Source: Candidatus Saccharimonadota bacterium
GTDB taxonomy: Bacteria; Patescibacteriota; Gracilibacteria; UBA4473
NCBI GenBank assembly: GCA_020632335.1
Contig: JACKFV010000001.1
Coordinates: 390,001 to 422,000 of the forward strand
DNA: 32,000 nt
Reading direction: 5' to 3'
The translations under genes were made by a program, and so were the position numbers. Within the stretch, counting starts at the first letter, position 1. The number at the start of each line of letters is the position of its first letter. The notes under the pieces were generated by a model that made no database searches, had not been told where the DNA came from, and saw nothing but the letters and a program-made list of their open reading frames with translations. Positions 282-26,272 of the stretch are shown here, one piece after another.

Positions 282-1745
282 TTATTTCACTCCCAGGTCG
301 GCCTTGATGGCGTGCAGGTGCCGCGCGGTGTGGGCGTCGCTCTCCAGCTGCTGGTGGATCTTCTTCACCCCGTGCATGATGGTGGTGTGGTTCTTCCCGC
401 CGAAATCCTCCCCGATCTGCTCATAGCTCATCCGCAGCACGTCGCGGCACAACACCCAGCACAGCTGCCGCGCGAAGACCACCTGCTGCTTGCGGCTGGT
501 GCCCAGGATGTCAGTAGCGGGGATGCCGAAGTAGTCCGCGATGAAGGTGATGATATCGTCGGTATTACGCGCGATGCCGCGTTTGGCTTCATCGGCCGTC
601 TGTAGCGGTGCACTGGGGTTGAGCTTACGCAGTATGCGGCTGACCGACTGCAGCGTGGGCGGCGTGTGGGTCAGCTCTACCTCCGCGCGGATCTGGTTCA
701 CCAGGTTCTCTACCTCTCGCAGCGTCTTGCGTACGTTGGCCGCGAGGAACTGCTCTATATCTGCCGGAAGGAGAAGATCGGCCGCTTGGGCTTTTTGCTG
801 TACTATGGCAATACGGGTCTCGAAGCTCGGCAACTGGACATCTACCGTCAGCCCCCAGCCCATACGACTGCGCAGCCGGTCTGCGATGCCGGTGAGCTCT
901 GACGGGGGCCGGTCTGCCGCAAAGATGATCTGCTTCTGCCCCTCGAAGAGGTCGTTAAAGGTATTAAAGAGCTCGTCTTGCGCGTGCTCCTTCCCGTCAA
1001 AAAACTGCACATCGTCGATGATGAGGACGTCTGTACGGCGGTACTTCTTACGGAATTCGTCGGTCTTGCGCTGGCGGATAGCCTTCACCAGCTCGTTGAG
1101 GAACCTCTCCGCGGTGGTATAGACCACCACCGCCTCTCCATCGCGCCGCAGCACCTCATTGGCCGTGCCCTGCAGCAGGTGGGTTTTGCCCAGCCCCACC
1201 CCGCCATAGATGAAGAGCGGGTTGTACTTCTTCTCCTTACCGGCGGCCTCGGCCACGGCCATGCAGGCGGCGTGCGCCAGGCGGTTCTCCTCCCCCACGA
1301 TGAAATTTCGGAGCGTCAGGTGACTGCTGAGCACCCGGCTCTCCACCCCTTCTTGCAGCCGCACGGTGGGCTCGTGGCGGATTTTCTTGGCGCTCAGTTG
1401 CTTCTCAAACAACGCTGGGTAGGCCACCGGAGCGTTGCTGAGCGAGAGATCGGTATCGAAGTAGACCTGGTCTACCTGTGGGCTCACGGCCTGGAGGTTA
1501 CTGAGAATGATGCCCCGGTACTTGCTACTGAGCCAGTTGCGGTGCATGTCGGTGGGGGCCAGCACCATGGCGCCGCCGCCCTCTATGCGCGCCAGCTGTA
1601 CCTTGGGGAACCAGGTGTGGAACTCCATACGGCTGAGCTTCTCACTCAGGCGCGCCAGCACGGCCTCCCATATCTGCTCTGTGGTCATGGTCAGCCCCTC
1701 CCCGATGTTCTTCCCCGTGGTGGCGGTGCTCGGTTCAGGACTCAT
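282..1745 (-). CDS. dnaA: Chromosomal replication initiator protein DnaA
   Basis: 487-codon ORF ending in TAA (282-284). Walker A FIYGGVGLGKTHLL, Walker B VLIIDDVQFF, C-terminal DnaA DNA-binding signature GGKNHTTIMHG. The ATG at 1745 has no SD and sits directly after a candidate -10. The internal ATG at 1686-1688 is preceded by GGAGG (1697-1701, 8-nt spacer), so 282..1688 (468 aa, MTTEQIWEAVL...) may be the true CDS. Confidence 0.95.
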   Translation of the reverse strand: MSPEPSTATTGKNIGEGLTMTTEQIWEAVLARLSEKLSRMEFHTWFPKVQLARIEGGGAMVLAPTDMHRNWLSSKYRGIILSNLQAVSPQVDQVYFDTDLSLSNAPVAYPALFEKQLSAKKIRHEPTVRLQEGVESRVLSSHLTLRNFIVGEENRLAHAACMAVAEAAGKEKKYNPLFIYGGVGLGKTHLLQGTANEVLRRDGEAVVVYTTAERFLNELVKAIRQRKTDEFRKKYRRTDVLIIDDVQFFDGKEHAQDELFNTFNDLFEGQKQIIFAADRPPSELTGIADRLRSRMGWGLTVDVQLPSFETRIAIVQQKAQAADLLLPADIEQFLAANVRKTLREVENLVNQIRAEVELTHTPPTLQSVSRILRKLNPSAPLQTADEAKRGIARNTDDIITFIADYFGIPATDILGTSRKQQVVFARQLCWVLCRDVLRMSYEQIGEDFGGKNHTTIMHGVKKIHQQLESDAHTARHLHAIKADLGVK

Positions 1746-1816: not shown

Positions 1817-2872
1817 TCACTCCATCTGCTGAGCACGCACAAGAATACGCTCGGAGAGGTCGGTATTACAGGTGAAGAGGAGGGCGTCTGTCTCCGGCGA
1901 GCTATCCCGCAGGGCCTCAGCGTCGCGCTGGGAGATAGCGGTTTTCTCGATGATCACATAGTGCCGCGGCTGCCCATCCACCGTGAGGGTGAGGGTGTCG
2001 CCACGGGTGATATCCCGCTGCAGCAGGGGGCTGAGCACTGGGCCATAGGGGGTGGGGTCTCCCTCCCAGGTGGAGGAGTGGCCAAAGACGATAAAGTTCT
2101 CGTTCTCACGGTCATAGTAGTAGCCCAGGCCGGTATTGGTCAGGTCGTCCAGCCACACGCTGGGGTCAGTCAACAAGGTGGGCGTCGCGGGGATAGCCTG
2201 TATGCTCGTCCCGTCGACGGTAAGCTGTATCTGCTCGCGGTAGTGGGGCGCGGCTTCATCTTGCACCCGGAGCGTGCGGGAGAGCAGCGTAAAGACCTCA
2301 GCGCGGGTAACGGGCGTGCTGAAGTCCCGCAAGGCCAGCGACGGAGGAATAACTCCCTGGGCCATGAGCGCGTCGTAATAGCGCTGCGGCCAGGGGGTGG
2401 AATCAGGTGCTTTGGGGTCACTATGGCCAAAGCCTACCGCCAGCAGCTTGAGGATCTCGCCATAGGTGATCTCCCCTGCGGGACGGAAGGTGCCGTCAGT
2501 ATAGCCCTTGAAGACCCCCATGCGCAGCAGCGTCTCGGCGTAGGGGAAGTACCACTGGGTTGGGTCGAGGTCCGGGAAGGAGGGGGATGGCAGCACGGCC
2601 AGCAAGCGTAGCTCCAGCGCGTGGGAGAGGATCTTGGCCACCTCAGCGCGGGTGATGGGCGCCTCCAGAGTCATGGTGCCGGTATTCCCCTGCCCGCTGA
2701 TGATGCGCTGGCGGTAGAGATCCACCGTGGCCTCATACGCTGGGTGGTCAGCGGAGGTATCACTAAAGATGGAATAGGCATTGTACTTGGCCCGCAACCA
2801 GTCTGGCACACTGGCCTCTGCCAGCCCAGCAGTAACCGAGCACAAGAGCAAGAGCAGCGCTAGAGGTCTCAT
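1817..2872 (-). CDS. Secreted protein with three SLH repeats and a C-terminal sortase-like (His-Cys-Arg) domain
   Basis: 351-aa ORF ending in TGA. Signal peptide MRPLALLLLLCSVTAGLAEA/S. Three SLH-like segments: SIFSDT...APITRAEVAKIL; FPDLDPTQWYFPYAETLLRMGVFKGYTDGTFRPAGEITYGEILKLL; ...FSTPVTRAEVFTLLSRTL. The C-terminal ~140 aa follow the sortase pattern: NFIVFGHSS (His265, nt 2078-2080), RGDTLTLTVDGQPRHYVI, ALLFTCN (Cys335, nt 1868-1870), Arg342. The His-to-Cys spacing is 70 aa, similar to known sortases. Confidence 0.75.
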   Translation of the reverse strand: MRPLALLLLLCSVTAGLAEASVPDWLRAKYNAYSIFSDTSADHPAYEATVDLYRQRIISGQGNTGTMTLEAPITRAEVAKILSHALELRLLAVLPSPSFPDLDPTQWYFPYAETLLRMGVFKGYTDGTFRPAGEITYGEILKLLAVGFGHSDPKAPDSTPWPQRYYDALMAQGVIPPSLALRDFSTPVTRAEVFTLLSRTLRVQDEAAPHYREQIQLTVDGTSIQAIPATPTLLTDPSVWLDDLTNTGLGYYYDRENENFIVFGHSSTWEGDPTPYGPVLSPLLQRDITRGDTLTLTVDGQPRHYVIIEKTAISQRDAEALRDSSPETDALLFTCNTDLSERILVRAQQME

Positions 2873-2881
2873 AAGCCTAGT

Positions 2882-3265
2882 CTAGCGCAAAACACCCGTG
2901 AGGGGAAGCACCGAAAGCAGCTCCAGGTTATTCGCCTCGCGGGTGAGAGAGGTACCCAGTGGCGTCTCCGCCTCGGCCAGGAGGACCGTCATATCTCTCC
3001 CGGTGGCGGGTGGCGGGGTGAGCGCAAGGATCTCCACAGGCTCTGGAGTGCTGGCCAGCAGTGGCGCAGCCGGCAGGGCGTACTGATAGGGCACAGAAGG
3101 CGCGGAGCCCAGGGCTCCTGTAATGGGCGTCTCGAACTGGCGAATGCCACCGTACTGCGCGCCCACCTCCATCAGCGAGAAGAGCGCCGGCCCCACGACC
3201 CCCACCGCGATGAGGACCAGACTCGTGAGCCAGGGGTTCTGCAGATGGTGGCGAGGAGCGTTCAT
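2882..3265 (-). CDS. Small N-terminally membrane-anchored Pro/Ala-rich protein ending in LPLTG-VLR; candidate sortase substrate
   Basis: 127-aa ORF ending in TAG. It is co-directional with the sortase-like gene and ends 9 nt before that gene's ATG. It has a single TM helix (LTSLVLIAVGVVGPALFSLM). The C-terminus reads ...LSVLPLTGVLR-stop, with the LPLTG codons at 2894-2908. I recognise no homolog; coding status rests on ORF length, operon position and the motif. Confidence 0.55.
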   Translation of the reverse strand: MNAPRHHLQNPWLTSLVLIAVGVVGPALFSLMEVGAQYGGIRQFETPITGALGSAPSVPYQYALPAAPLLASTPEPVEILALTPPPATGRDMTVLLAEAETPLGTSLTREANNLELLSVLPLTGVLR

Positions 3266-3411: not shown

Positions 3412-5328
3412 GTGGTGGTGGGGCTGCTGGTGCTGCAGGGGGGGCTGTGGTACGCGCATCGTGCACCGGTCAGCCCGCCGGCCATGCCCGAGAAGCTCCC
3501 CTGTGTGAGCTATGACCCGCACTACGCCCTGAGGGGCTACAACCCCCAGCACGATCAAGCGGTTATCTCCCCCCAGCAGCTGGAGCGGGACATGGCTTTC
3601 CTCCAGCGCATCACCAGCTGTGTACGGGTCTACAGCAGCACGGGTGGCCTGCAGCGCCTGCCGAGGATAGCCCAGCAGTACGGCATGAACGTCATCGTCG
3701 GAGCGTGGATAGACCCCCAGTACCCCGAGCGCACCCGGCAGGAGATAGACAACGCGCTCTGGATGGCCAACAACAATAGCAATGTGCCGCAGGTGATTCT
3801 CGGGAATGAGGTGCTGTTCTTCGAGCAATACACGGTGCCCGAGCTCATTGCTATACTCGACGATGCTCGATCTCGTACGCAGGTGCCCCTCAGCACGGCC
3901 GAGATGCCCTTCAACTGGGAATGGCACCCGGAGCTGGTGGCGCACGTGGATTTCCTCACTATACACGCCTTCTCCTACTGGGCGGGAGAGCCAAGCAGCC
4001 ATAGCATAGCCCCCCTGGCGGCTGACTATAAGAAGGTACAGCGCGTGGCGGGTGGCAAGCGGATATTCTTTGGCGAGGTGGGGTGGCCGAGCGCTGGGTA
4101 CCAGCAGGGGCAGGCGCAGCCGGGAGTGCAGCAGCAGGGGCGGTTCCTGCGGGAGTTTGCACACCGTGCGGCGCAAGAAGGCTGGTGGTATAACGTCATA
4201 GAGGCCTATGACCAGCCGTGGAAGCTCCGCACGCAGGAGGGCAGAACGGGCGCGCACTTTGGGCTCTTTACCCCGAGTGGGCAGATGAAGTGGCCCTGGA
4301 GCGGCCCGCTGGAACGCCTGCCGCACTGGGAGTGGTGGGCCGGGCTCTCTCTGCTGCTGAGCGCCTGGTGGAGCGTCTTGCTCTGGGAGCGGCGTCACCC
4401 TGGCGGCTGGGGGGTAGAGCTCTTCCTCCACGGGAGCGGGCACGTCTTTGCGGTGGTGCTGGTGCTGGTCGGCTATACCCTCCACAGCGAGTACCTGCTG
4501 CGCCTGCCCATCATCTGGGGATTCCTCGTGGTGCCGCTGCTCTTCTTGGCTCTTGTGGTGGTGGCCAAGGCCCGAGAGAGCGCCCCGGTGCTGCGCCGTG
4601 TGCCGCTCCTGCAGGTGCCTGTGCCCGTGCCGCTACCGCTAGACCCGCCACTGGTGAGCCTCCACCTGCCCACCCACAACGAGCCGCCAGAGGTGGTGAT
4701 CGCTACGCTGCGGGCGCTTACGCGGCTTGAGTACCCCCGGTTTGAGGTGCGCGTGCTCGACAATAATACGCGTGATACAGCGCTCTGGGAGCCGGTGCAG
4801 CAGTACATCACCGCGCTGCAAGACCAGCGATTTCACTTCCATCACTCGGAAGAAATCACGGGGTATAAGGCCGGCGCGCTGAACTGGGGCATCTCCCTCA
4901 CTCCGCCAGAGTACTCCCTCATCGCCTGTATAGATGCGGATTACCAGGTGCAGCCGGGGTGGCTCGGGCAGGTGGTGGGGTATTTCTCAGACCCGCAGGT
5001 AGCCGCGGTGCAGTGCCCCCAGCACCACCAGAGCCCACACATGACCCCACAGCAACGCGCCATGTGCGCCGAGTATGAGGCTTTCTTTCATATCGGTATG
5101 GTGAGGCGTAATGAGGATAATGCCATTGTCTTGCACGGAACGATGGTGTGCCTGCGGCGCTCGGTGCTGGAGGGAATAGGCTGGCCGACGCATACCATCA
5201 CCGAGGACGCTGACCTAGGGCTGCAGCTGCTGATGGCGGGCCACCGAGTGCTCTACCACAACGCAGTGCTGGGGTCTGGGGTGCCGCCGGTGGATTTCTC
5301 GGCGTATGAGCAGCAGCGGTTCCGGTAG
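3412..5328 (+). CDS. GH17 glucanase/transglycosylase - TM - GT2 processive beta-glycosyltransferase fusion (NdvB-like), N-terminal 638 codons up to a premature TAG
   Basis: GH17 motifs ILGNEVLF and FFGEVGWPSAG. Three TM helices lie mid-protein. GT2 motifs LPTHNEPPEVVIATL, ACIDADY, ITEDADLG and QQRFR, followed immediately by TAG (5326-5328). The GTG start at 3412 is uncertain; the frame is open from 3367. Confidence 0.85.
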   Translation: MVVGLLVLQGGLWYAHRAPVSPPAMPEKLPCVSYDPHYALRGYNPQHDQAVISPQQLERDMAFLQRITSCVRVYSSTGGLQRLPRIAQQYGMNVIVGAWIDPQYPERTRQEIDNALWMANNNSNVPQVILGNEVLFFEQYTVPELIAILDDARSRTQVPLSTAEMPFNWEWHPELVAHVDFLTIHAFSYWAGEPSSHSIAPLAADYKKVQRVAGGKRIFFGEVGWPSAGYQQGQAQPGVQQQGRFLREFAHRAAQEGWWYNVIEAYDQPWKLRTQEGRTGAHFGLFTPSGQMKWPWSGPLERLPHWEWWAGLSLLLSAWWSVLLWERRHPGGWGVELFLHGSGHVFAVVLVLVGYTLHSEYLLRLPIIWGFLVVPLLFLALVVVAKARESAPVLRRVPLLQVPVPVPLPLDPPLVSLHLPTHNEPPEVVIATLRALTRLEYPRFEVRVLDNNTRDTALWEPVQQYITALQDQRFHFHHSEEITGYKAGALNWGISLTPPEYSLIACIDADYQVQPGWLGQVVGYFSDPQVAAVQCPQHHQSPHMTPQQRAMCAEYEAFFHIGMVRRNEDNAIVLHGTMVCLRRSVLEGIGWPTHTITEDADLGLQLLMAGHRVLYHNAVLGSGVPPVDFSAYEQQRFR

Positions 5329-5340
5329 GCCTATGGCGGC

Positions 5341-5949
5341 GTGGGGATCCTCCGGCGGTACTGGCGGGCGCTCTTTTTGGGGCATTCTCGGCTCAGCAGG
5401 GCGCAGCGCTGGCACTTCATCAGCGGGTGGCTGCCGTGGCTGGCAGACGCGTTCTACCCGCTCTTCACCATGGCGGGGCTGGGGTGGAGTGCCCTCCTGC
5501 TGGTGAGCGACCGGCTGATGCTGCCCGAGAGTTTCAGCTATCCGCTGCTGTTCTTTGCCGTGTGGAATACCGTGCAGAGCGCCTGGACCTACCACACCGC
5601 GGTGCCGGGGGCCCGTATGCAGAGCCTCTGGCAGAGCACGGTGGCGGGCAGTAGCCTGACCAGTAGTATTGCTCTGGCGGTGTACCAGCAGTTGCTGGGT
5701 ATGCGGGCCAGCTTCCACGTGACGCCAAAACAAGGCAGCACCAGCGCCCCGTGGTGGCAGGCGCTCTGGCGGGCAGACTTTGTACTGAGCGGGCTCTATT
5801 GGCTGGCGGCGATGGCAGCGTGCGTGCTGTGGAGCGTGCGCTACGGGGCGATCCATACCGAGGCGCTTCTCTGGGCCATAGCCGCAACGGTGATGGTACT
5901 GCCCAGCCTGGCGGCCGTACGGATGATTTCGTATAGAAACCCGGTGTAG
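5341..5949 (+). CDS. C-terminal multi-pass membrane portion of the same GT2 synthase (same frame as 3412..5328)
   Basis: Same reading frame as the upstream ORF (3412 and 5341 are both frame 1). The sequence right after the TAG reads AYGGVGILRRYW..., the normal continuation after QxxRW in cellulose-synthase-like GT2s. Several hydrophobic helices follow. Stop is TAG at 5947-5949. Confidence 0.7.
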   Translation: MGILRRYWRALFLGHSRLSRAQRWHFISGWLPWLADAFYPLFTMAGLGWSALLLVSDRLMLPESFSYPLLFFAVWNTVQSAWTYHTAVPGARMQSLWQSTVAGSSLTSSIALAVYQQLLGMRASFHVTPKQGSTSAPWWQALWRADFVLSGLYWLAAMAACVLWSVRYGAIHTEALLWAIAATVMVLPSLAAVRMISYRNPV

Positions 5950-24300: not shown

Positions 24301-26272
24301 CGCGCACAACGCCGATGGGATCTATGGTAATAGCAGCGACGAAATGCCGGTGCCAGGCGTGGGGATCTCGCTCTACACGGACCTCAACGGCGATGGCATC
24401 ATCGACACCACCGTGGGCGGCCCTGACGAGTTCATCAGCCAGATAATGACAGATAGCTCCGGGCAGTATGCCTTCACGGGCCTGCCGGTACAGGACGGCG
24501 CTGGGCAGCCGATAGAGTACCGCGTGGTCGTGACGCAAGACAACGGCTACAGCACCATACTGGGAGCCGACGCGCAGGTGCAGACGGGCTACAGCGTGAC
24601 GCTCAGCCCCGTGCAAAATGTGCATCTGCTGGCTAACTTTGCGCAGGTGCTGGGCTCTATAGGCGACACCGTGTGGCATGACGCGAATACAAACGGCGTG
24701 CAAGACAGCGGCGAGGCGGGCATACCAGGGGTAGTCGTGACGCTCTACGACGAGGCGGGAGTGGTCATCGGCACCCGGGTGACCGACGCAGACGGGCACT
24801 ACTACTTCTGTGGGCTGCCGCACGGCACCTACACCGTGACCACCAGCACCCCCGCGCAGTACCCCAACGCCAGCACCCCCACCAGCTGGACGGTAACCCT
24901 CACCCCCAGCAGCTATGTGAGTGATACTGAGGATTTTGGCTTCTACAAAGACACCCCCACCACCACGAGCACCACCACCGGCGGCAGCGTGCCAGACGGC
25001 CCTCCGATAGACTACAGCACGACAACCGGCACCACTACAGGTACCACGACGGGCACTAGCACCACGGGGACCACCGACGGCACTAGCACCGGCGTGACGC
25101 TGCCACCGAACATAGACCCCGAACTGCCGCTCATCGTCTTCCCTCCACGGCCCAAGCCCACTATGCCAGACCGCCAGTACGTGCGGGAGAATGACCTCAT
25201 CCGCAAGCTGGAGGAGCTGCCACAGACGGGGTTCAGCACACTGGGGCCGGTGCCAGAGCAAATCATCAGAGCCTTTGACGCGGGGTCTATCTTCTCGGAT
25301 ACTGACGTGAACGACGACGGCTACGTCGAGATGATCAACCTGCATCTGCAGAATATCCTCCCCATTGACCGCAGCATGCGCTTTGCGCCGAAGGAACCCA
25401 TCAGTGGTATAGACGCCGCGGTGATGATGATCGGTAGTCAGGAGGCCGTGGAGGACTACGAGATCCTCGACGATTACTTCTACCAGCAGGCGGCACTGAC
25501 CGAGCACTGGTATGATGAGATCCTCTGGTATGTGGCGGAGTACGATATTGACCTCGGGTTTAAGTGGACGCTGCCCGGAGCAGGCTACTTCCTCACCATG
25601 GACGACGCCACCAGCATCACGGCGCAGGCATTCCATATCCTCCCGTCAGACATGCTGCAGGCGTGGGACAGCCCCGTGGATATGTACCGCGAGGGGCTCA
25701 TCGAGCGCAATATCATCAACGGTGAGATGGAGCAGTGGCCACGAGAGGGCACGCTCAGCCGGGTGGAATTCGCTATGCTGCTCAGCCGAGTACTCATGTA
25801 CCATGATCTGAAAGACGTGGGCATGGCCAAACTCCCCAAGGACGTGCAACTGCACAGCAGCATCAAGGGGCTGGAGAAAGATGTGCCCGTGCACTTTGCC
25901 CTGCCGAATGAGCACAGTGGCTGGGTGGAGGCCCTGCACTATGGTCTGGCGATGTACGAGCGCCCCAGCGATAGCATCGACCCAGGGCAGTTGTACCTGT
26001 GGGGGCATAGCTCTGAGGTGCCCAACTACCCCATGAGCAAGCAGCCCTACGGGCATATCCTCAACGCGCTCTGGAGTGGCGCCAACATAGGCGAAACCCT
26101 AACCCTCACCACTGACGGGCAGGCAGAGACCTACATCATCCGTGATATACAGCGTATGGTGCCCAAGGCCGCGGTAGAGACCTGGCAGGACTACTCCGAG
26201 CACGATATGGTGCTGATGACCTGTGAGAAAGACATCGACTACCGGATGAACGTCTGGCTGGATAAACTCTAG
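6251..26272 (+). CDS. Giant (about 6,673 aa) secreted multidomain surface/adhesin-like protein with C-terminal LPQTG + SLH/sortase-like module
   Basis: Uninterrupted 20.1-kb ORF; the track starts it at TTG 6173. ATG 6251 gives a signal-peptide-like N-terminus (MRHLRRALSALLTTSLLASQYSVWLLAGFLG) and is preferred. Recognisable DUF11-like, SdrD-B-like, propeller-like, SLH-like and sortase-like modules occur throughout. Stop is TAG at 26270-26272. Confidence 0.9.
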   Translation: MRHLRRALSALLTTSLLASQYSVWLLAGFLGNQLISPGQAAASFVINDSVGVYTYTAGSQWMPGIIPPTGNPGNISDPSYNLTPAGGTGITLYDTGLGTAHVSTIAVSPLSFDAWERLVIHTGLVSPQHSYTVEVFDCSSGNLLSGTAPSLGTLTQGNTSSGQIVYDMSGYDNTYTCLQAQVTMQQGGASFPPVIEGIDIEWDPRPVWLTDISCAGSPTEVGSQGSYTVRYSLSYADDSNSVVWVPLPSDGNGILYPGAYPTPGSATNASSAYGQTVPPTAPTSISHGGQYTPTATTVLGQAIPANSIYWQLGAVKAGETGVMSFSWPLPNGFQDGITGAFQSSVTSANTGVLSSSPVVCPYTATPEPRMNKEVSGGFYQSNTQTHYLFDSFGYSTVATYHLDYSNYRELAPHPYWGSRNSTSDGKGGEEVYNAVLVDDVSEIIDALDASCGGSSGAITAISSGGVLDSLAKTITWSLGDLAINDYGEVTYSVDYGGCPEDTTVTNTATLYGDNITPLQDSEIVSIQTPPRGKGAFAKGDEADWYNTINGTTQYSVPQIWSHVDNNIPGIYLNKWDIQPHTHEEAITYYLRAATTEQGGNRAMSDVVMVDKIRKSGNALDDPNVGAAFSGVTFISAKLDPSITQYGRIFYYTGSDTTPAIEPGSDAPLYDYADFAAYAGPADTDIGGGSLGWKLYSLSTTPPASVDWVAFYIPCISSNAFPISTEPWGRCAYGDYNPLHPNALDSNPNNDYVPDRITNSITVTIDTPADACESYVIPNEGNFKAHRLPTDTPGTPAREDLEWHSGRGDSDLSLSEGFSSVGDLEYTHVVPTLGGFGYSSMEVDGESTIYMTDTDTFSTSITVENLGSDTALNTTVEVPIPVVAANNGSFGLTLLGVSLGGWSGSVDYSGLPNSISINLGTLPVGMQAELSLDWQLPMGIPDNTLVPLTATVSFADNNSCPTPSQPLDTAVVVRNTPELVLNKYRDAALIPSGEAVNYQITALNLGPAVSSDTFVFDEVPEYMVLKSAYVQTVDDNGTMYNCNSNGSMACKVYFFPRGQSCGAVNPNGIISSSNPITASDIYSCFEEGQETSPGSGEWIPTSFSAEDTLYIAWLLDEAFTPHFFPVNKLVTVGFQAINDTNYSNGLSDPLVDGSPAGTLLQNFPAIVSQELLQAIGNQVFTTIIPEPLMQITKQSSTNYINAGGDFEWTVNYVNESLTESTISVLQETLPAGVILQEVWHEWNFRADQNGAPASAGAYGAPVKLWDSSTSNGAVTVNALPGGTTVQVAINNDGSEAASFPGVPLDSSGNTLRGGPLGLLEGGTFTLKVSAPADAETWDLLHNEAQIDFKTSHGVNTVDDSDDVYVQNPELLISKTASVEETISGNGFQYAMVVRNQGLWQAENVVIADTLPAELSYVPGSLQVIGTTYSVINEAYTGGYGGTLSFSLSNGSDPDGVLPANSGTIYLLYAVTVDPGTPPGTVMTNSASIVNDLLENPDPNPSCDPGDPRLTGQLATPDAGNPLYYCNNITEDSVLIPYFDPYITKRAPDQVQGGDYFDYTLRYGNGTQQPGEEVFIADALPSYNTVTDSDGNPSNGTVTLENVVVSNGETIYYTYAPTLTDLSTLDYSTVISWSTTPALPYTTHIAIVPSGGTMPGLAGPYTVTVRVQASDAATGIAHVAGTIMNNATMVQSSSTDPECIPGDPAYDPGFSACGDDTDDTVTKTPGFDLSIEKFADKEGIFPGYTPGETLQYTIRVGNSAISAEPACGVYVQELSYPEELDPSTITHDWTSPGFVDQTTGAPISYLTPAGLGYDTVPSSCVQITTADTDSDTVTDQWTLDTTAAPGCPSSYEALCIPPGAVQTFSISGKIMLDMPDYFDSGDPIENTIQVCNHDGTAPDDCAPGAEDIPNNNQASSLTVVYRSDPISSNSGYSCGEDDICGNEDDSAQTANAGDTIAYTVTYDNLGHTGAENSVLEETIPEGTCLEVGSIAGEIPVSASITYSNDNGSSWTYTPVADGNGQDCAVTHFRIDFGTLPAPAGFAADPSSDPLVGYQGDASALIEEALCFGGIAAIPNNLQVIGTGESTIAGGTRGTSALEGSDGNLYVAWANNGEDNEIWMWDGSTWAIIGSGESALPGSTYASSMLEGSDGNLYVAWANNGQDNEIWMWDGSTWAIIGSGESNITGSSYASSMLEGSDGNLYVAWANNGQDNEIWMWDGSAWTIIAYYGSVSSTGTVAMAPAAGGSFFIAWANRGNQDNVVWEYDPSPGYAVTTLQKTLLPVVTGTLTSWGDYTFDYSTPDDSSLVVRVQNINASGVCGGTTLAGPVTLSGADTSYTIDMSGIAATNTALCIRATFTPSSDGVSSPLLDCGSFSYDVLEPDNPSVLYTTQANNTQCIGTPSYTPNTWEVIGFGESSLGGNTGSTALLQGSDENFYVAWANNNNQANEVWMWDGSAWTIIGSGESSVAGFTKDTALLEGADGNLYVAWANGQALPNEVWMWDGAAWTIIGSGESGFNGYTETTSLLEGTDGNLYVAWGNTSAAGAPNEVWMWDGAAWTIIGSGESSIAGSTSDSSMIEGADGNLYVAWANNGQDNEVWMWDGSAWTIIGSGESSIAGSTYGSSMIEGSDGNLYVAWANNGQDNEVWMWDGSAWTIIGSGESSVTGGTHTSSMLEGTDGNLYVAWGSYSGQTTNEVWMWDGSAWTIIGSGESTATGNTGSSGMIEGSDGSLYVSWANYGGQANQVWRYTTPVADAYGLETTYQTLLSASPDASAWDTLYLNTVLDDELLGTATVAVYDASCTTQLLGITDASIGLVDISTIPVATHPSICIAVTLALPALTQQPIGSTNPAQLCGLYATYTAPSPTFGFRVGVQTAGLTVDTINNTVCISTDTPELDENNNCGEDEIVLLNSELSLTKTVDQSVAHTGDTLTYTLEVCNNGQHQAQDVEITDTLPVLLTGVVFSPDITSTSPDYASLNAGACETITVTGTIDAGATSGDILTNQACVVGTQYDPDETNNCDTAHTFIGDAPNLEIEKTDNVDFDEINNELTYIITYRNSGNADAQDVTITDTLSGYVSYQSFAVLSGPITSCSHDGSPLGGDVTCDAGGSPLATLSAQESGEIEIVVRIEPGSPEPMQPFLDQIMQENDPLIDNNVCISIDPDEVNITDNCDQDETEIASSYASLSGYVFLDGLDETPTDAVYDPLSPGDDTPLENVVVYLLGEDVFGRYYGPAPTDPVYAQLLADGVFLNLLGVADPANTPGVAYLTQVNYNDAAQTLPHGTTNSDGLYGFVGLTPGTYHTVEIQPVHYASTGSNAGHTVDTSSGSAVLTEVGSGSHNDGGNSPNAGDMGSTLSVNYISGIVLSSGDDSVHNDYGEVGGSIGDTVFFELEGTADGLYNGTDILAPNVRIRLSYDLDGDGTADHFQSQVTDLNGAYSFDALPLYDDTGAPLTYTLWVDNSSIPTSWDSTDDEAGGAGNTADNTSDNQAHDPLSTTVTFSDPTLQPNRHVTDADFGYTGPTGSIGNTVFYDADSNELYEPDSNGDGYVQAGEDAPIPYVQVTLYLDNGFPGLYEPAFDTIYQVTYTDADGQYLFENLPLGQDYIVRVTDGTVNDGSPGYGVSYLSNHVSTYAATYGNSANASTVPSSLQDHEGRNPNGYFVHLEDDTVLDHPQLIHHEYADFGYVMPTPGEIGNQVWYEAGTNTSYDSGTDDGAEGIELTLYYDANCDGAYDPLDSDGDGWPDSGDQYWGTTMTDANGQYLFPYLPYSDGQHTDPLSGEESICYLVAVTDTLNNTALTTTGSTADNENKDENGYSVTLSDGAVGNTPGVSSNIDYTADFGYEAPVWGIVGNTVFYDINGDGIYNSATEVAIDGVDIVLQINTDTTGTSPTWQDASTYYPLLDDRVTTGVTASNDDWSGAAWTQGQYFFAELPLILIDGVTPAQYRAVVDGATLPAGFSTADSTHGVTTSESTTQNPSPGANTDDYARDPAGYIFALDDTNPGVSNVDLTGDFGIIRYTNIGDLVWFDANNSCALDPSETAGIPGVVLTLSWDQSDTLSNTAVEGTTGATPLAYSAGVTATTNADGVYDFASVPVVWPLGDLSGVTNPTYTVSVSTPPTGFTSSYASGSGSCDNGDNTGHNPGGSSTGAINPTVSVVNTLDFGYTVLGEIGTTVFLDLDKDAVYETASTESGISGVEVCLYTDRDNSGSIDTSYGSSDEVSCLTTDSTGQYLFTGLPVDGGDGATPLDYIVIVPNSTPNAGADGSLITDDGGLLDGYFSTHQSQLYPANESPTSDTLTNNDEAVSRDPAGYQVQLSVDLSNAATDPNTHEYTADFGYHEESYDAQLSGYVFLDPDADTCRDTGSLTTPAPSCSGTDPDNDVPMNGVEMVLWGIDAFGNYYGPAPTHPLYLTAITELGLDPVAYASNPPAEYFVIDPALTGPQAPQAGYTTNSSWPAGYYNFGSLNPAAGILTLPDGAYTVAEMQPAGYGSTGSNAGDNLSVTLNGEGSYENNPLNPGDPCGATALTACDPARPYTVNIIRDILLPPSSHSEENNFGELLAQIGNHVFWDTNQDGTYNEGDSGIPGVTLTIACTDTTSGDVVDVIDASTGSVLPAPVQQVTDSSGGYTFTGIPLDADCTVTVDQSTLPDPSATPTVGIADTDEESQHGTTPNTYTVSTSSSDPSSWVIPYVDFGYYTDQLGSIGDLVFMDTDQDGAYNGTDYGIGGVTITLYDDSSCSNPIATAVTDGTGAYSFSMIPFGDYSVSVDLGSGALGGLSSTHGEASGAGASPADDSNNNAAHDPGCITASIDSSDPTENDADFGFTVPGGPVILGSFGDLVWQDLNGDGLYDAGEPPLPGVDVCLYNDVNSSGSYEPGTDTLVGLGCETSDLNGQYLYSGLPVGDYCVVVDTTTVPSGYTHTSGGTPGVDNTSHPEQYCFSIVNTPEGLDPRYGYFGYEPGSNSCIATLGGTVFYDAQPSGGYDTSGDSTLGGVTLEIYAGNSLVTTTTTDAQGDYQLTLPCGQYAVVVTDDYGVLPSGWTSTHTSGLSSQYMGPDNLSKDPTGYSMVITTNGQVNLTGDFGYYGDGSNPVYGSIGDYVWLDLNGDCIQDAGEAGIAGVEVTLVTSSGATYTTLTDSSGLYLFSGLPADTYTVLIDGSSSPNQSSLSGLQSTYESSCTQAQDPSGSSTSINGNSVLSVDFPYNQTGGPVDSCSAATYTGVIGDTVFYDADGDGQYDESGPDYGLGGVPVVLYASDGVTVVVTTTTTASGAYSFLVTSPGTYTVALGTLPAFYSGLVSTHTTATHGAPHSDGNPDLARDPAGYSVTLSASPSCDQTDRSADFGLAAAVVPPNPFIGEIGNAVWYDDDRDGVWDTGEALIPNVLIIVYDSNDVPVCETLTTSTPNATGGNWLCTGLDVNETFTVVVADDTTHPMSQHVLAGMTHSLGVQNLPGSSYSTDNNSQNDSGYIVDVLSQSTPTNYTADFGYYDEDTPPGTPLCSFGDQFFLDMDDNDLFSTGEESSLFDNVTVSLYADDNVDGIADTGTAVLSITPDATGSYSFAPVVCGHYVVVVMDMSTLPTGLTPTSTGGNGTAAAPNDDNSDGISKDPTAAYPVFLDPAGDTAQVHGDFGFIVENTACMGSVGDYIFEESDTDGDQSTALVGPVEGVTITLTDSITGQVYTTTSDASGAYSFSPVPCSDYTVTVANSTDPVLLGNQLVPTNGTTQTSNGYSVTITNGVVVDTADFSYQQDPTIPPTPTLITIGDFTWEDSNGDGIQDSGEPPLSGIDLCLHVDLNGNGNPYDDTPISTTTSNSSGLYSFTSLPAGVDYHVAVCGYPLTHVPTTPTQLQGPIDDPVSDNSYNFGFQPLVLPPPPTTPLGSIEATVFYDENGDGTLNGADTGIAGVTVWLVRDLNGDGTYDPASETVATTLTNSSGIYAFTQLPVVDSTGNPVTYQVVVDASNPLSPLSNMLPTVTVADTPGPDENETTTHTELVTLSPSAPDNTEVDFGYVLDPLAPVVGTIGYHVWCECAHNADGIYGNSSDEMPVPGVGISLYTDLNGDGIIDTTVGGPDEFISQIMTDSSGQYAFTGLPVQDGAGQPIEYRVVVTQDNGYSTILGADAQVQTGYSVTLSPVQNVHLLANFAQVLGSIGDTVWHDANTNGVQDSGEAGIPGVVVTLYDEAGVVIGTRVTDADGHYYFCGLPHGTYTVTTSTPAQYPNASTPTSWTVTLTPSSYVSDTEDFGFYKDTPTTTSTTTGGSVPDGPPIDYSTTTGTTTGTTTGTSTTGTTDGTSTGVTLPPNIDPELPLIVFPPRPKPTMPDRQYVRENDLIRKLEELPQTGFSTLGPVPEQIIRAFDAGSIFSDTDVNDDGYVEMINLHLQNILPIDRSMRFAPKEPISGIDAAVMMIGSQEAVEDYEILDDYFYQQAALTEHWYDEILWYVAEYDIDLGFKWTLPGAGYFLTMDDATSITAQAFHILPSDMLQAWDSPVDMYREGLIERNIINGEMEQWPREGTLSRVEFAMLLSRVLMYHDLKDVGMAKLPKDVQLHSSIKGLEKDVPVHFALPNEHSGWVEALHYGLAMYERPSDSIDPGQLYLWGHSSEVPNYPMSKQPYGHILNALWSGANIGETLTLTTDGQAETYIIRDIQRMVPKAAVETWQDYSEHDMVLMTCEKDIDYRMNVWLDKL
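6571..6855 (+). repeat. Unnamed ~95-aa domain, copy 1 of 3
   Basis: SPLSFDAWERLVIHTG...YTVEVFDCSSGNLLSG...IVYDMSGYDNTYTCLQAQVT...PPVIEGIDIEW. It aligns with the copies at 13094 and 14540 through a shared W-x-x-L ... V-x-V-x-D/N-x-S ... L-x-G ... (I/V)D(M/I)S ... (L/I)C(I/L) ... pattern. Confidence 0.5.
9177..12210 (+). repeat. Region with at least six DUF11-like (conserved repeat domain) modules
   Basis: Module starts include LVLNKYRDAALIPSGEAVNYQITALNLGP, LMQITKQSSTNYINAGGDFEWTVNYVN, LLISKTASVEETISGNGFQYAMVVRNQGLWQAENVVIADTLPAELSYVPGS, PYITKRAPDQVQGGDYFDYTLRYGNG, LSIEKFADKEG...TLQYTIRVGN and ANAGDTIAYTVTYDNLGHTGAENSVLEETIPEG. All fit the DUF11 pattern (x-K-x ... GD-x-hydrophobic-x-Y-x-hydrophobic-x-hydrophobic-x-N-x-G ... 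hydrophobic-x-D-x-L-P). Confidence 0.6.
12482..13036 (+). repeat. Propeller-like tandem repeat block 1: four 48-aa blades (144-nt DNA period)
   Basis: IG(T/S)GES...(S/T)..(A/M)LEGSDGNLYVAWANNG(E/Q)DNEIWMWDGS(T/A)W(A/T)I repeated three times, with ctcgag landmarks at 12533, 12677 and 12821 (exactly 144 nt apart). A fourth copy is degenerate (...GGSFFIAWANRGNQDNVVWEYD). The first three copies are near-identical at the DNA level. Confidence 0.85.
13094..13369 (+). repeat. Unnamed ~95-aa domain, copy 2 of 3 (directly after propeller block 1)
   Basis: GTLTSWGDYTFDYSTPDDSSLVVRVQNINASGVCGGTTLAGPVTLSGADTSYTIDMSGIAATNTALCIRATFTPSSDGVSSPLLDCGSFSY. Confidence 0.5.
13469..14479 (+). repeat. Propeller-like tandem repeat block 2: seven 44-51-aa blades
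   Basis: Seven consecutive units of IGxGES-x12-(L/I)(E/Q)G(S/A/T)D(G/E)(N/S)(L/F)YV(A/S)W(A/G)N...N(E/Q)VW(M/R)(W/Y)DG(S/A)AWTI. Units 4 and 5 (about 13920-14210) are almost identical in DNA. Seven blades is the count of a closed beta-propeller. Confidence 0.85.
14540..14818 (+). repeat. Unnamed ~95-aa domain, copy 3 of 3 (directly after propeller block 2)
   Basis: SPDASAWDTLYLNTVLDDELLGTATVAVYDASCTTQLLGITDASIGLVDISTIPVATHPSICIAVTLALP...PAQLCGLYATYT. Confidence 0.5.
14968..15640 (+). repeat. Two further DUF11-like modules
   Basis: SELSLTKTVDQSVAHTGDTLTYTLEVCNNGQHQAQDVEITDTLPVLL and PNLEIEKTDNVDFDEINNELTYIITYRNSGNADAQDVTITDTLSGYVSYQS. Both are close matches to the DUF11 consensus. Confidence 0.7.
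15782..24943 (+). repeat. Array of about 21 SdrD-B-like (Cna-B/prealbumin-type, Ca-binding) modules
   Basis: Each unit begins G-(S/E)-I-G-(D/N)-x-V-(F/W)-x-D and carries a DxNxDGxxD loop, then (I/L)xGVxVxLY, then TxTDxxGxYxFxxLP.GxYxV, and ends in (A/T)DFG(Y/F). I counted 21 such starts by eye (15782, 16370, 16800, 17305, 17770, 18290, 18730, 19260, 19910, 20330, 20725, 21120, 21500, 21875, 22285, 22710, 23135, 23495, 23845, 24275, 24655; approximate). Units 1 and 8 belong to a longer subtype (SGYVFLD ... FG(R/N)YYGPAPT ... QP.(H/G)Y(A/G)STGSNAG). Confidence 0.75.
24947..25165 (+). repeat. Low-complexity Thr/Gly-rich then Pro-rich linker (wall-spanning-type region)
   Basis: KDTPTTTSTTTGGSVPDGPPIDYSTTTGTTTGTTTGTSTTGTTDGTSTGVTLPPNIDPELPLIVFPPRPKPTMP. 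Confidence 0.8.
25217..25231 (+). other. LPQTG (LPXTG-type sortase recognition motif), residues about 6323-6327 of the giant protein
   Basis: Codons ctg cca cag acg ggg are in frame. By my reading this is the only LPxTG in the protein. It sits between the Thr/Pro linker and the C-terminal sortase-like module and is not followed by a hydrophobic helix or basic tail. Confidence 0.5.
25232..26269 (+). other. C-terminal 346-aa module of the giant protein: three degenerate SLH-like segments + sortase-like domain, paralogous to CDS 1817..2872
   Basis: Colinear matches to the 351-aa protein: (G/Y)SIFSDT, TEHWYDEILWYVAEY vs PTQWYFPYAETLLRM, GTLSRVEFAMLLSRVL vs TPVTRAEVFTLLSRTL, LYLWGHSSE vs FIVFGHSST, GETLTLTTDGQAETYII vs GDTLTLTVDGQPRHYVI, VLMTCEKDIDYR vs LLFTCNTDLSER. 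His is at 26006-26008, Cys at 26222-26224 and Arg at 26243-26245. Confidence 0.7.

What the first reader, a model, noticed from the sequence alone, without database searches (positions are those of the whole stretch)
1817..3265. Two-gene operon: small membrane protein ending in LPLTGVLR immediately upstream of a secreted SLH-sortase-like protein
Seen in sequence: the 127-aa ORF (2882-3265) has one N-terminal TM helix and terminates ...SVLPLTGVLR-stop (LPLTG at 2894-2908), only 9 nt before the ATG of the sortase-like gene. That gene encodes a cleavable signal peptide, three SLH repeats and a His265/Cys335/Arg342 sortase-type domain, and has no TM anchor of its own. Two things are odd. First, a sortase-like enzyme appears targeted to the wall by SLH repeats rather than to the membrane. 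Second, the putative substrate has its membrane anchor at the N-terminus and only four residues after the LPXTG glycine, the reverse of the canonical topology. An LPxTG at the extreme C-terminus of a 127-aa protein next to a sortase-like gene is unlikely to be coincidence. Inference: the small protein could be a dedicated substrate, an acceptor/stalk, or a regulator of the same machinery used by the giant protein.
Basis: partly seen in the sequence, partly recalled or inferred. Interest (0 to 1): 0.75.

Follow-up and report, generated by a model that had tools for sequence, protein, structure and literature searches.

The report
Small substrate gene beside wall-bound sortase
A small membrane protein that ends in a sortase recognition signal sits directly in front of a cell-wall-binding sortase gene; relatives show the pair is the split form of a signal-plus-sortase cassette that this bacterial group (Peregrinibacteria) usually fuses to the ends of giant surface proteins, an arrangement I found described nowhere.

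Summary
The 127-aa ORF (2882-3265, minus strand) has one N-terminal hydrophobic helix and ends LPLTGVLR-TAG, 9 nt before a 351-aa gene. That gene encodes a signal peptide, a three-repeat SLH fold and a divergent sortase domain with His265/Cys335/Arg342. The two ORFs are in the same frame.

The only ortholog (P0002, 476 aa) is one polypeptide: TM helix, linker, LPLTG, SLH, sortase.

An exhaustive search found about 40 relatives, the named ones from Peregrinibacteria/Peribacteria. In 23 proteins of 320-4811 aa (some cut by contig ends), plus the window's 6699-aa protein, the SLH-sortase module is C-terminal. It is preceded by an extended signal, R-x2-[DN][DN]-h-x5-[LI]PxTG, usually 9 residues before the SLH start. 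The small ORF's tail matches this signal as well as the giant protein's does: 24.3 and 26.0 bits, against 9.7 for the next-best position in the window.

Of 8 non-fused relatives, 4 have an upstream same-strand gene ending in [LIF]PxTG.

Best reading: the small protein is the cognate acyl-donor substrate of the adjacent wall-bound sortase, a split form of a substrate-fused sortase cassette. Catalysis, cis versus trans action and the acceptor are untested. This is a new variant of a known kind.

The parts
2882..3265 (-). Small ORF, 127 aa (NCBI: hypothetical protein H6771_01910). Predicted type II membrane protein that carries the sorting signal at its C-terminus.
   Evidence: ORF. Coding signature. 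Only an identical database copy was found. Colinear with residues 33-147 of P0002, pairwise E=0.003.
3164..3232 (-). Hydrophobic TM / signal-anchor segment (residues about 12-34), preceded by the basic N-terminus MNAPRHHLQNP.
   Evidence: Kyte-Doolittle maximum 2.23 at residues 16-34. The homologous segment of P0002 is modelled as a long helix, residues 2-42.
2957..3163 (-). Ala/Pro/Leu/Thr-rich linker (residues 35-103), predicted disordered.
   Evidence: Composition. The equivalent P0002 residues 42-111 have pLDDT below 50.
2894..2956 (-). Extended sorting signal GTSLTREANNLELLSVLPLTG (residues 104-124). LPLTG lies at 2894-2908.
   Evidence: Matches the family consensus R(-11) x x [DN](-8) [DN](-7) h(-6) x5 [LI]PxTG. 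PSSM score 24.3 bits; using only the 16 residues before the pentapeptide it ranks 5th of 36,152 positions. Modelled as ordered (pLDDT 82-87) when joined to the enzyme.
2873..2893 (-). Three-residue tail VLR, TAG stop (2882-2884) and the 9-nt in-frame spacer to the next ATG.
   Evidence: VLR is modelled as disordered. TAG is a genuine stop in this genome: ssb ends ...DDLPF-TAG, and 6 of 10 window genes end in TAG.
1817..2872 (-). SLH-sortase gene, 351 aa (NCBI: sortase [Candidatus Peribacteria bacterium]).
2813..2872 (-). Cleavable signal peptide MRPLALLLLLCSVTAGLAEA (residues 1-20).
   Evidence: Read from the sequence. The stand-alone relatives P0106, P0107, P0121 and P0125 have signal peptides at the same place, directly before VP.WLR.KY.
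2258..2809 (-). SLH three-repeat domain (residues about 22-205), with TRAE-type motifs ITRAEV, ITYGEI and VTRAEV.
   Evidence: Pfam SLH 5.6e-15. Foldseek matches to B. anthracis Sap SLH (3pyw, TMt 0.78) and SpaA-SLH (7sv4, TMt 0.79).
1823..2245 (-). Divergent sortase domain (residues 210-350). Codons: His265 2078-2080, Cys335 1868-1870, Arg342 1847-1849, invariant Trp240 2153-2155.
   Evidence: Invariant columns. The family profile hits only sortases in the PDB, best 4d70 at 3.2e-8. The profile retrieves PF04203 sortases of Patescibacteria. Sortase fold confirmed.
25169..26269 (+). The same cassette fused to the C-terminus of the 6699-aa surface protein. It comprises the extended signal DRQYVRENDLIRKLEELPQTG (LPQTG at 25217-25231), a degenerate SLH-like region, and the sortase domain (25835-26269).
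   Evidence: Alignment with the split pair and P0002. Pfam Sortase 23.6 bits. PSSM 26.0 bits.

Best explanation
The small ORF and the 351-aa gene are the split, two-gene form of a lineage-specific 'substrate-coupled sortase' cassette of Peregrinibacteria/Peribacteria.

The cassette has three parts in order:
1. An extended sorting signal, R-x2-[DN][DN]-h-x5-[LI]PxTG.
2. A spacer, usually 9 residues.
3. An SLH domain followed by a sortase domain.

In most relatives the cassette is fused to the C-terminus of a surface protein, often a giant one. In P0002 it follows an N-terminal TM helix and linker. In this window a stop codon, a start codon and a signal peptide lie between the signal and the enzyme.

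Proposed mechanism (inferred, not shown):
- The two genes are co-transcribed.
- The small protein inserts N-in, so its linker and tail are extracytoplasmic.
- The enzyme is secreted, loses its signal peptide and binds wall polymer through its SLH domain.
- The small protein's tail docks on the enzyme.
- Cys335 attacks the Thr-Gly bond of LPLTG and releases GVLR. This gives the same thioacyl enzyme-stalk intermediate that cis attack would give in P0002.
- An envelope amine, most plausibly a peptidoglycan cross-bridge, resolves the intermediate. The membrane-anchored stalk is left covalently joined to the wall.

The giant protein's LPQTG would be processed in the same way, either by its own fused domain or by the free 351-aa enzyme.
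For: Shown by the analysis:
- The ortholog P0002 is a single chain: TM, linker, LPLTG, SLH, sortase. LPLTG is identical although the N-terminal part is only 24% identical.
- About 40 representatives share the domain.
- In 25 proteins, counting P0002 and the window's giant, an [LIFW]Px[TS]G precedes the SLH-sortase module. The Gly-to-SLH-start spacer is 9 residues in 16 of 23 measurable cases.
- The pre-motif R..[DN][DN]h is conserved and is present in the small ORF's tail. PSSM scores are 24.3 bits for the tail and 26.0 for the giant, against 9.7 for the next best position. The tail's pre-motif alone ranks 5th of 36,152.
- Upstream same-strand genes end in the motif in the window and in three other loci:
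  - P0107...ELPTTGK*.
  - P0110...ALPTTG plus a hydrophobic tail.
  - P0128...NRDTDTLDNMQAFPKTG plus a hydrophobic tail.
- The enzyme is a genuine sortase homolog with an intact His/Cys/Arg triad and the sortase fold. Its SLH fold matches domains that bind pyruvylated wall polymer.
- The small ORF has a coding signature, and no terminator separates the genes.
- AlphaFold models the pre-motif as ordered (pLDDT 82-87, one strand plus one short helix). This holds both in P0002 and in an artificial join of the small-ORF tail to the mature enzyme. The residues just after the scissile Gly are disordered in both.
- The P0128 locus is adjacent to FemAB-family and class A PBP genes, which is consistent with a peptidoglycan acceptor.
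Against: - There is no biochemical, transcript or proteomic evidence.
- The small ORF has only one, weakly similar, counterpart.
- 4 of 8 close non-fused relatives and 2 more distant SLH-sortases have no LPxTG gene upstream.
- The upstream tails of P0107 and P0110 lack the pre-motif.
The joined chain is artificial, and its alignment contains fused homologs.
- The single-sequence Pfam Sortase score is below the curated cut-off.
- The neighbouring BcsA-like gene carries an in-frame TAG at an invariant Trp. This assembly therefore does contain at least one TAG-interrupted gene.
- The acceptor nucleophile is unknown.
Confidence: 0.6

Rival explanations
1. Decaying remnant. A formerly single-chain gene of the P0002 type was split, and the small ORF is now a functionless leftover. 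The enzyme acts only on other substrates such as the giant protein.
For: - The ORFs are in frame and separated by one TAG and 9 nt.
- No homolog exists beyond P0002.
- A neighbouring gene shows a clear TAG nonsense lesion.
- Half of the stand-alone relatives work without an upstream LPxTG gene.
Against: - A plain nonsense mutation cannot create the 20-aa signal peptide that follows. That peptide sits where stand-alone relatives have theirs.
- The codon signature is intact.
- The extended signal scores as high as the giant protein's, and higher than P0002's own 14.7 bits. The motif therefore appears to be maintained while the rest of the ORF has diverged.
Confidence: 0.15
2. Non-substrate partner. 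The small protein is a membrane tether or regulator that docks the otherwise soluble enzyme, acting as a pseudo-substrate or as a SafA-like modulator of signal-peptide cleavage. It is not itself ligated to the wall.
For: - Small TM proteins genetically linked to sortases are known to regulate them (SafA, PMC9282373).
- P0128 has an N-terminal TM anchor without any LPxTG. Membrane tethering of this enzyme therefore occurs without cleavage.
- The enzyme has an AXA site.
- The tail is modelled as docked.
Against: - SafA's defining FPW motif is absent, and SafA lies downstream of the sortase gene, not upstream (PMC9282373).
- Exact retention of the catalytic recognition pentapeptide, at a fixed distance from the enzyme, in 25 proteins points to catalysis rather than mere binding.
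Confidence: 0.15
3. One gene. The TAG is an assembly error or is read through, giving a single 483-aa protein like P0002.
For: - Same frame, with no other stop in the spacer.
- P0002 is 476 aa.
- The P0107 locus also has only one in-frame TAG in its 72-nt spacer.
- The GT2 neighbour has a TAG at a Trp codon.
Against: - TAG is a real stop here: ssb ends at its canonical DDLPF tip, and 6 of 10 genes end in TAG.
- No tRNA gene lies in the window.
- A fused product would carry a second hydrophobic segment between LPLTG and SLH. That would put the SLH-sortase on the wrong side of the membrane (inference).
- The P0110 and P0128 pairs are out of frame, so in-frame pairs are 2 of 4, which is chance level.
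Confidence: 0.05
4. Chance. The LPLTG is a coincidental pentapeptide in a spurious ORF.
For: No Pfam or NCBIfam family matches the small ORF.
Against: PSSM result, conservation in P0002, coding signature, and recurrence of the arrangement in three other loci.
Confidence: 0.02

Closest known systems
Canonical sortase / LPXTG cell-wall sorting (class A sortase SrtA of Staphylococcus aureus and relatives; peptidase family C60, Pfam PF04203)
   Same: Same fold and the same His-Cys-Arg triad. The recognition pentapeptide is of LPXTG type. A substrate gene lies next to the enzyme gene in several loci. Two relatives (the P0110 and P0128 loci) still have substrates with a hydrophobic tail after the motif.
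   Different: - The enzyme has a cleavable signal peptide and an SLH wall-binding domain instead of an N-terminal membrane anchor.
- Most substrates lack any hydrophobic or charged tail and are fused directly to the enzyme.
- The recognition signal extends 11 residues upstream of the pentapeptide.
- Here the substrate is anchored by its N-terminus and has only 3 residues after Gly.
Class C (pilus-polymerising) and lid-bearing sortases (A. oris SrtC-1 2xwg, C. diphtheriae SrtA 5k9a/6bwe)
   Same: These are the best structural matches of the sortase domain. The fused passengers carry SdrD-B, Cna-B and SpaA-type domains typical of pilins and adhesins.
   Different: There is no evidence of a pilin Lys nucleophile, and the small protein has no Lys at all. 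Sequence identity is only 14-24%. Whether the invariant Trp in the S-V-W-L helix acts as a lid was not tested.
SafA, the small TM protein encoded next to actinobacterial housekeeping sortase (PMC9282373)
   Same: A small single-pass membrane protein genetically linked to a sortase whose N-terminus has an AXA signal-peptidase site.
   Different: SafA lies downstream of the sortase gene, acts through an exoplasmic FPW motif and blocks signal peptidase. The ORF here lies upstream, has no FPW and ends in a sorting signal.
Engineered self-cleaving sortase fusion tags (e.g. BISOP, PMC2901362)
   Same: Enzyme and LPXTG site are in one polypeptide, so the enzyme can cut its own chain.
   Different: These are artificial, with the order enzyme-LPXTG-cargo. 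In the natural cassette the order is cargo-signal-SLH-enzyme. I found no natural counterpart in the literature searched.
SLH-domain wall anchoring of S-layer and surface proteins (B. anthracis Sap, P. alvei SpaA)
   Same: Three-repeat SLH fold, with TRAE-type motifs in repeats 1 and 3.
   Different: Here the SLH domain carries a transpeptidase rather than a structural or hydrolytic passenger. The copy in the giant protein is degenerate and is not detected by Pfam.

Membership tests
Sortase (peptidase C60, PF04203) | Catalytic His, Cys (in a TLxTC-like strand) and Arg are conserved. | tested here: met
   H265, C335 (LLFTC) and R342 are invariant in 25 family sequences.
Sortase (peptidase C60, PF04203) | Significant sequence match to sortase models or sequences. 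| tested here: met
   The single sequence scores 25.6 bits, below the 26.6 cut-off. The family profile, however, hits only sortases in the PDB (4d70, 3.2e-8) and retrieves PF04203 proteins at 1e-12 to 1e-6.
Sortase (peptidase C60, PF04203) | Sortase beta-barrel fold. | tested here: met
   AlphaFold pLDDT is above 90 in the domain. Foldseek probability is 1.00 to 6bwe, 2xwg, 5k9a, 3o0p and others.
Sortase (peptidase C60, PF04203) | N-terminal membrane anchor that holds the enzyme at the membrane (typical of classes A-F). | tested here: not met
   The protein has a signal peptide with an AEA|S site and no other hydrophobic segment. The relatives P0002 and P0128 do have an N-terminal TM helix.
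Sortase (peptidase C60, PF04203) | Cleavage of LPXTG between Thr and Gly, followed by transpeptidation. | not testable with these tools
   Requires an enzyme assay.
LPXTG cell-wall sorting signal substrates | LPXTG pentapeptide near the C-terminus. | tested here: met
   LPLTG at residues 120-124 of 127.
LPXTG cell-wall sorting signal substrates | Hydrophobic segment and positively charged tail after the pentapeptide. | tested here: not met
   Only VLR follows the pentapeptide.
LPXTG cell-wall sorting signal substrates | N-terminal cleavable signal peptide. | tested here: inconclusive
   The N-terminal hydrophobic segment has no obvious AXA site. The homologous P0002 segment is a long helix. 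No signal-peptide predictor was available.
SLH domain proteins (PF00395) | SLH repeats forming the three-repeat wall-polymer-binding fold. | tested here: met
   Pfam 5.6e-15. TMt 0.78-0.80 to 3pyw, 7sv4 and 6cwh.
SafA-type sortase modulators | Exoplasmic FPW motif and a position immediately downstream of the sortase gene. | tested here: not met
   No FPW is present in the sequence, and the ORF lies upstream (PMC9282373).
Peregrinibacterial fused signal-SLH-sortase cassette (defined here) | Extended signal R-x2-[DN][DN]-h-x5-[LI]PxTG. | tested here: met
   Small-ORF tail scores 24.3 bits and the giant's junction 26.0 bits, with a PSSM trained on other organisms.
Peregrinibacterial fused signal-SLH-sortase cassette (defined here) | Signal covalently followed, after about 9 residues, by the SLH-sortase. 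| tested here: not met
   For the small ORF, a stop, a start and a 20-aa signal peptide intervene, so this is a split variant. The feature is met for the giant protein, whose spacer is 14 residues.

The most novel reading that the evidence does not exclude
Peregrinibacteria possess natural 'self-sorting' proteins. A C-terminal SLH-sortase domain, held in the wall rather than the membrane, cuts the sorting signal of its own polypeptide in cis. It then transfers the passenger, which can be a giant adhesin, to an envelope acceptor in a single turnover. In the split form, the same chemistry joins a lysine-free, N-terminally membrane-anchored stalk to the wall. That would create a covalent membrane-to-wall tether, analogous in role to Braun's lipoprotein.
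Probability: 0.3. Interest if true: 0.85.

Novelty: new variant of a known kind. Interest (0 to 1): 0.68.

Why it matters
Sortases are textbook membrane-anchored enzymes that act in trans on precursors held in the membrane by a C-terminal tail.

Here the enzyme appears to be parked in the wall by SLH repeats. It is physically or genetically coupled to each substrate. It also appears to read a signal that extends well beyond the pentapeptide.

If the chemistry is confirmed, three things follow:
- It would show how ultra-small CPR bacteria mount 2,000-6,700-residue surface proteins, which are probably central to their attachment to other cells.
- It would add a natural cis-acting sortase-substrate fusion to a field that has only engineered ones.
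- It would provide new sortase/signal pairs for protein ligation.

There is also an annotation consequence. The C-terminal modules of these large proteins are currently unannotated: NCBI names them only 'DUF11' or 'DUF2341 domain-containing protein'.

Tried and rejected
- **Chance motif.** Rejected by the PSSM ranking.
- **TAG reassignment or read-through.** Considered because the two ORFs are in frame, and because the neighbouring BcsA-like gene has a TAG at the invariant Trp of QxxRW. Rejected on four grounds:
  - ssb ends at its canonical tip with TAG.
  - TAG ends 6 of 10 genes.
  - No tRNA gene lies in the window.
  - Only 2 of 4 substrate/enzyme pairs are in frame.
- **SafA-like regulator.** The defining features are not met.
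- **Searches that led nowhere:**
  - The small ORF alone finds only itself.
  - The first genome-contig scan found nothing. The 25-sequence alignment was too diverse to make search patterns.
  - The second genome scan and the metagenome scan recovered only loci already known, plus one new fused locus, L008.
  - The search for homologous proteins with the family profile returned only ordinary sortases, not family members.
  - The context of P0136, the second cassette protein on the same contig, is not on record.
  - Model coordinates are not exposed, so the contact between LPLTG and Cys335 could not be measured.
  - Six literature searches found no description of a natural signal-SLH-sortase fusion.
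Full report
**1. What is in the sequence**

The window comes from a Candidatus Peribacteria MAG. NCBI names the 351-aa product 'sortase [Candidatus Peribacteria bacterium]' and the small product 'hypothetical protein H6771_01910'. Both lie on a 630,865-bp contig.

On the minus strand the gene order is small ORF (2882-3265), then SLH-sortase (1817-2872), then dnaA (282-1745). A BcsA-like GT2 gene (from 3412) and a 6699-aa surface protein (6173-26272) are transcribed divergently.

The small ORF encodes:
- a basic N-terminus;
- one hydrophobic segment (residues 16-34, mean hydropathy 2.23);
- an Ala/Pro-rich linker;
- the terminus ...TREANNLELLSVLPLTGVLR.

It has no Lys and no Cys. A TAG and 9 nt separate it from the next ATG, and the two ORFs are in the same frame.

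The small ORF looks like a real coding region. GC at codon positions 1/2/3 is 0.70/0.50/0.77. The codon log-odds is +0.19 in frame and negative in the other five frames, as for dnaA, ssb and the sortase gene. No terminator-like site lies between the genes. Shine-Dalgarno sequences are absent upstream of all genes in the window, so the lack of one here says nothing.

**2. The enzyme**

Pfam finds SLH at 5.6e-15 and Sortase at 25.6 bits, one bit under the curated threshold. Three results settle that it is a sortase homolog:
- A 25-sequence alignment of the family's C-terminal domain has exactly five invariant columns. They correspond to Trp240, His265, Ser266, Cys335 and Arg342 of the window protein.
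- Its profile matches only sortases among all PDB sequences (best 4d70, 3.2e-8).
- The profile retrieves PF04203 sortases of Patescibacteria from the large protein collection.

AlphaFold models built with the family alignment are confident: pLDDT 80.9 for P0002, and 87.4 with pTM 0.87 for the window construct. They match three-repeat SLH domains that bind pyruvylated wall polymer (3pyw, 7sv3/7sv4; TMt 0.78-0.81). They also match sortases, best the lid-bearing class C type and C. diphtheriae SrtA.

The N-terminus MRPLALLLLLCSVTAGLAEA|SVPDW has the pattern of a cleavable signal peptide. The stand-alone relatives P0106, P0107, P0121 and P0125 have signal peptides at the same position, directly before the conserved VP.WLR.KY.A.S.F.D opening of the SLH region.

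**3. The key comparison**

The small ORF alone has no database relative. The only full-length relative of the enzyme, P0002 (476 aa, 46% identity, from another MAG of the same study series), is a single polypeptide. Its order is TM helix, about 100-residue linker...NVLLVETLPLTG, LKVD, IPAWLRSKYNANSIFAD..., SLH, sortase.

The small ORF aligns colinearly with P0002 residues 33-147 at 24% identity (pairwise E=0.003), and LPLTG is identical. Relative to P0002, the window has a 24-codon insertion (alignment). It lies between the Gly of LPLTG and the conserved VP.WLR start, and it contains the stop, the start and the signal peptide.

The 'reversed topology' is therefore explained. The small ORF is the counterpart of the N-terminal anchor-plus-linker of a single-chain form.

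**4. A family of signal-SLH-sortase cassettes**

An exhaustive HMMER search of 1.84 billion representatives, followed by domain mapping, gave about 40 proteins with this divergent sortase domain.

In 23 proteins of 320-4811 aa (the shortest are cut by contig ends), and in the window's 6699-aa protein, the module is C-terminal. It is immediately preceded by [LIFW]Px[TS]G. The spacer from the Gly to the aromatic residue that opens the SLH region is 9 residues in 16 of 23 measurable cases, with a range of 8-14.

Conservation extends upstream. The consensus is R(-11), K(-9), D/N(-8), D/N(-7), L/F(-6), R/Y(-4), T(-3), I/V(-1), then [IL]PxTG.

A PSSM built only from the 23 proteins of other organisms gives these scores:

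| Position scored | Full 21-residue score (bits) | Rank using only the 16 residues before the pentapeptide |
|---|---|---|
| Giant protein's junction | 26.0 | 7th of 36,152 |
| Small ORF's tail | 24.3 | 5th of 36,152 |
| Next best six-frame position in the window | 9.7 | n/a |

The small ORF therefore carries the family's full sorting signal, not just a pentapeptide.

Named members are annotated 'DUF11' or 'DUF2341 domain-containing protein' from Ca. Peribacteria and Ca. Peregrinibacteria. One of them, P0136 (2587 aa), lies on the same contig as the window.

**5. Gene neighbourhoods of the non-fused members**

I read the upstream context of eight close non-fused members. Four have an immediately upstream, same-strand gene ending in the motif:
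- The window: LPLTGVLR*.
- P0107...IMIDELPTTGK*, with a 72-nt spacer, then a signal-peptide enzyme.
- P0110: a 649-aa secreted Ig-repeat protein ending ALPTTGAAQTRTLATLLIALFAMFSTALFAIKQ*, which is a classical sorting signal.
- P0128: a Thr-rich repeat protein ending NRDTDTLDNMQAFPKTGAETAWYTALYNTIISFFIQLIAVL*. A TM-anchored enzyme starts 32 nt later, and FemAB-family and class A PBP genes are adjacent.

Four do not:
- P0106: a CreD-like gene lies upstream.
- P0121: an SLH protein without the motif lies upstream.
- P0125: the upstream gene is divergent.
- P0115: HicA lies upstream.

Two members of a more distant SLH-sortase subfamily also have no such gene.

The arrangements form a series:
1. 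Classical: a tail-anchored substrate plus a TM-anchored enzyme.
2. Truncated tail plus a secreted enzyme. The window pair belongs here.
3. Complete fusion.

**6. Structure-based hint of docking**

In the P0002 model, the TM helix is a long helix and the linker is disordered. The 20 residues before the scissile bond are ordered (pLDDT 82-87; strand 124-128, helix 135-138). Thr-Gly plus the next three residues are disordered.

I then joined the last 45 residues of the small ORF to the mature window enzyme. This is an artificial chain. It gave the same picture:
- Tail residues L21-T41 have pLDDT 82-87, with the same strand and helix.
- VLR has pLDDT below 50.
- The first 18 residues have pLDDT below 50.

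A 20-residue peptide is unlikely to receive such confidence unless it packs on the folded body. This is consistent with the pre-motif being a docking element. It is indirect evidence, because no coordinates were available and the alignment contains fused homologs.

**7. Mechanism proposed**

What is shown: homology of the parts, the conserved catalytic triad, the conserved extended signal at a fixed distance from the enzyme, and the recurrent gene linkage or fusion.

What is inferred:
- The enzyme cleaves Thr|Gly of the signal.
- In the split form it acts in trans on the small protein's tail and releases GVLR.
- This yields the same thioacyl enzyme-stalk species that cis attack would yield in P0002.
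- An envelope amine then resolves the intermediate.

Two observations suggest the reaction has moved from the membrane surface into the wall: the enzyme is SLH-bound and secreted, and fused substrates have no membrane tail. If so, the acceptor may be mature peptidoglycan rather than lipid II. The FemAB/PBP neighbours of P0128 are compatible with a peptidoglycan acceptor but do not prove it.

The small protein has no Lys, so it can only be an acyl donor.

**8. Rivals**

- *Dead remnant of a split gene.* This is disfavoured by the signal peptide that follows the stop, the intact coding signature and the high motif score. It cannot be excluded with one ortholog.
- *Read-through or assembly-error single gene.* This is disfavoured for three reasons. 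TAG is a bona fide and frequent stop (ssb ends ...DDLPF-TAG). A fused product would have a second hydrophobic segment that puts the enzyme on the wrong side of the membrane. In-frame pairs are only 2 of 4.
- *SafA-like regulator.* This fails the defining features (PMC9282373).
- *Chance.* This is excluded (section 4).

**9. Comparison with what is known, and novelty**

The chemistry is presumably ordinary sortase chemistry, and SLH anchoring is well known. Four things are not described in anything I could find:
- a sortase domain placed directly after the sorting signal at the C-terminus of its own substrate;
- SLH-based rather than membrane-based placement of a sortase coupled to that arrangement;
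- the extended upstream signal;
- a minimal, N-terminally anchored substrate with only three residues after Gly.

Only engineered self-cleaving sortase fusions were found (PMC2901362). The literature library is incomplete, so prior description cannot be ruled out.

I rate this a new variant of a known kind. Interest is 0.68. The specific two-gene finding is modest on its own, but it opens onto a lineage-wide, testable and unexpected way of coupling sortases to giant surface proteins in CPR bacteria.

Noticed in passing
window 3412-5949 (+), stop at 5326-5328: The BcsA-like processive glycosyltransferase next door is interrupted by an in-frame TAG. The TAG aligns exactly with the invariant Trp of the Q-x-x-R-W motif (window QQRFR*AYG against BcsA 4hg6 QQRGRWATG). 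Homology continues into the in-frame ORF 5341-5949. It is likely a TGG-to-TAG nonsense lesion, a strain variant or an assembly error.
   Followed up: partly
window, all called genes: TAG ends 6 of 10 confident genes, TAA ends 3 and TGA ends 1. This is an unusual stop-codon preference for a 60% G+C genome. TGA is not used as a sense codon in the 20-kb giant ORF.
   Followed up: partly
window 25232-25834 (+): The SLH-like region of the giant protein's C-terminal cassette is degenerate. Pfam does not detect SLH, and the TRAE-type motifs are replaced by ISGID, LTMDD and LSRVE. This copy may no longer bind wall polymer, although its His/Cys/Arg triad is intact.
   Followed up: no
L013 1700-5697 and L014 1474-5471: The TM-anchored family member P0128 lies back-to-back with a FemAB-family gene and a class A PBP gene. 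These enzymes build the peptidoglycan cross-bridge that is the sortase acceptor in staphylococci.
   Followed up: no
L003 262-336 (and L004): In the P0107 locus, the ORF ending ...ELPTTGK and the SLH-sortase ORF are also in frame. Only a single TAG interrupts the 72-nt spacer. With the window that makes 2 of 4 pairs in frame, which is compatible with chance.
   Followed up: partly
window 2153-2155 (Trp240) and family alignment A3 column W33: An invariant Trp sits in the conserved T-L-x-S-D-x-S-V-W-L helix at the start of the sortase domain. This recalls the D-P-W lid of class C sortases, which were the best structural matches. Whether it covers the active site could not be checked without coordinates.
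   Followed up: no
same 630,865-bp contig, outside the window (protein P0136 = MCB9809775.1): A second large protein of this genome (2587 aa, annotated 'DUF11 domain-containing protein') carries the fused IPQTG-SLH-sortase cassette. In another genome, two cassette proteins (P0108 and P0135) share one contig, and a stand-alone enzyme (P0106) lies on a second contig. Genomes therefore hold several copies.
   Followed up: partly
window 282-1745 (-): dnaA lies 72 nt downstream of the SLH-sortase gene on the same strand, so the pair sits next to the probable replication-origin region.
   Followed up: no
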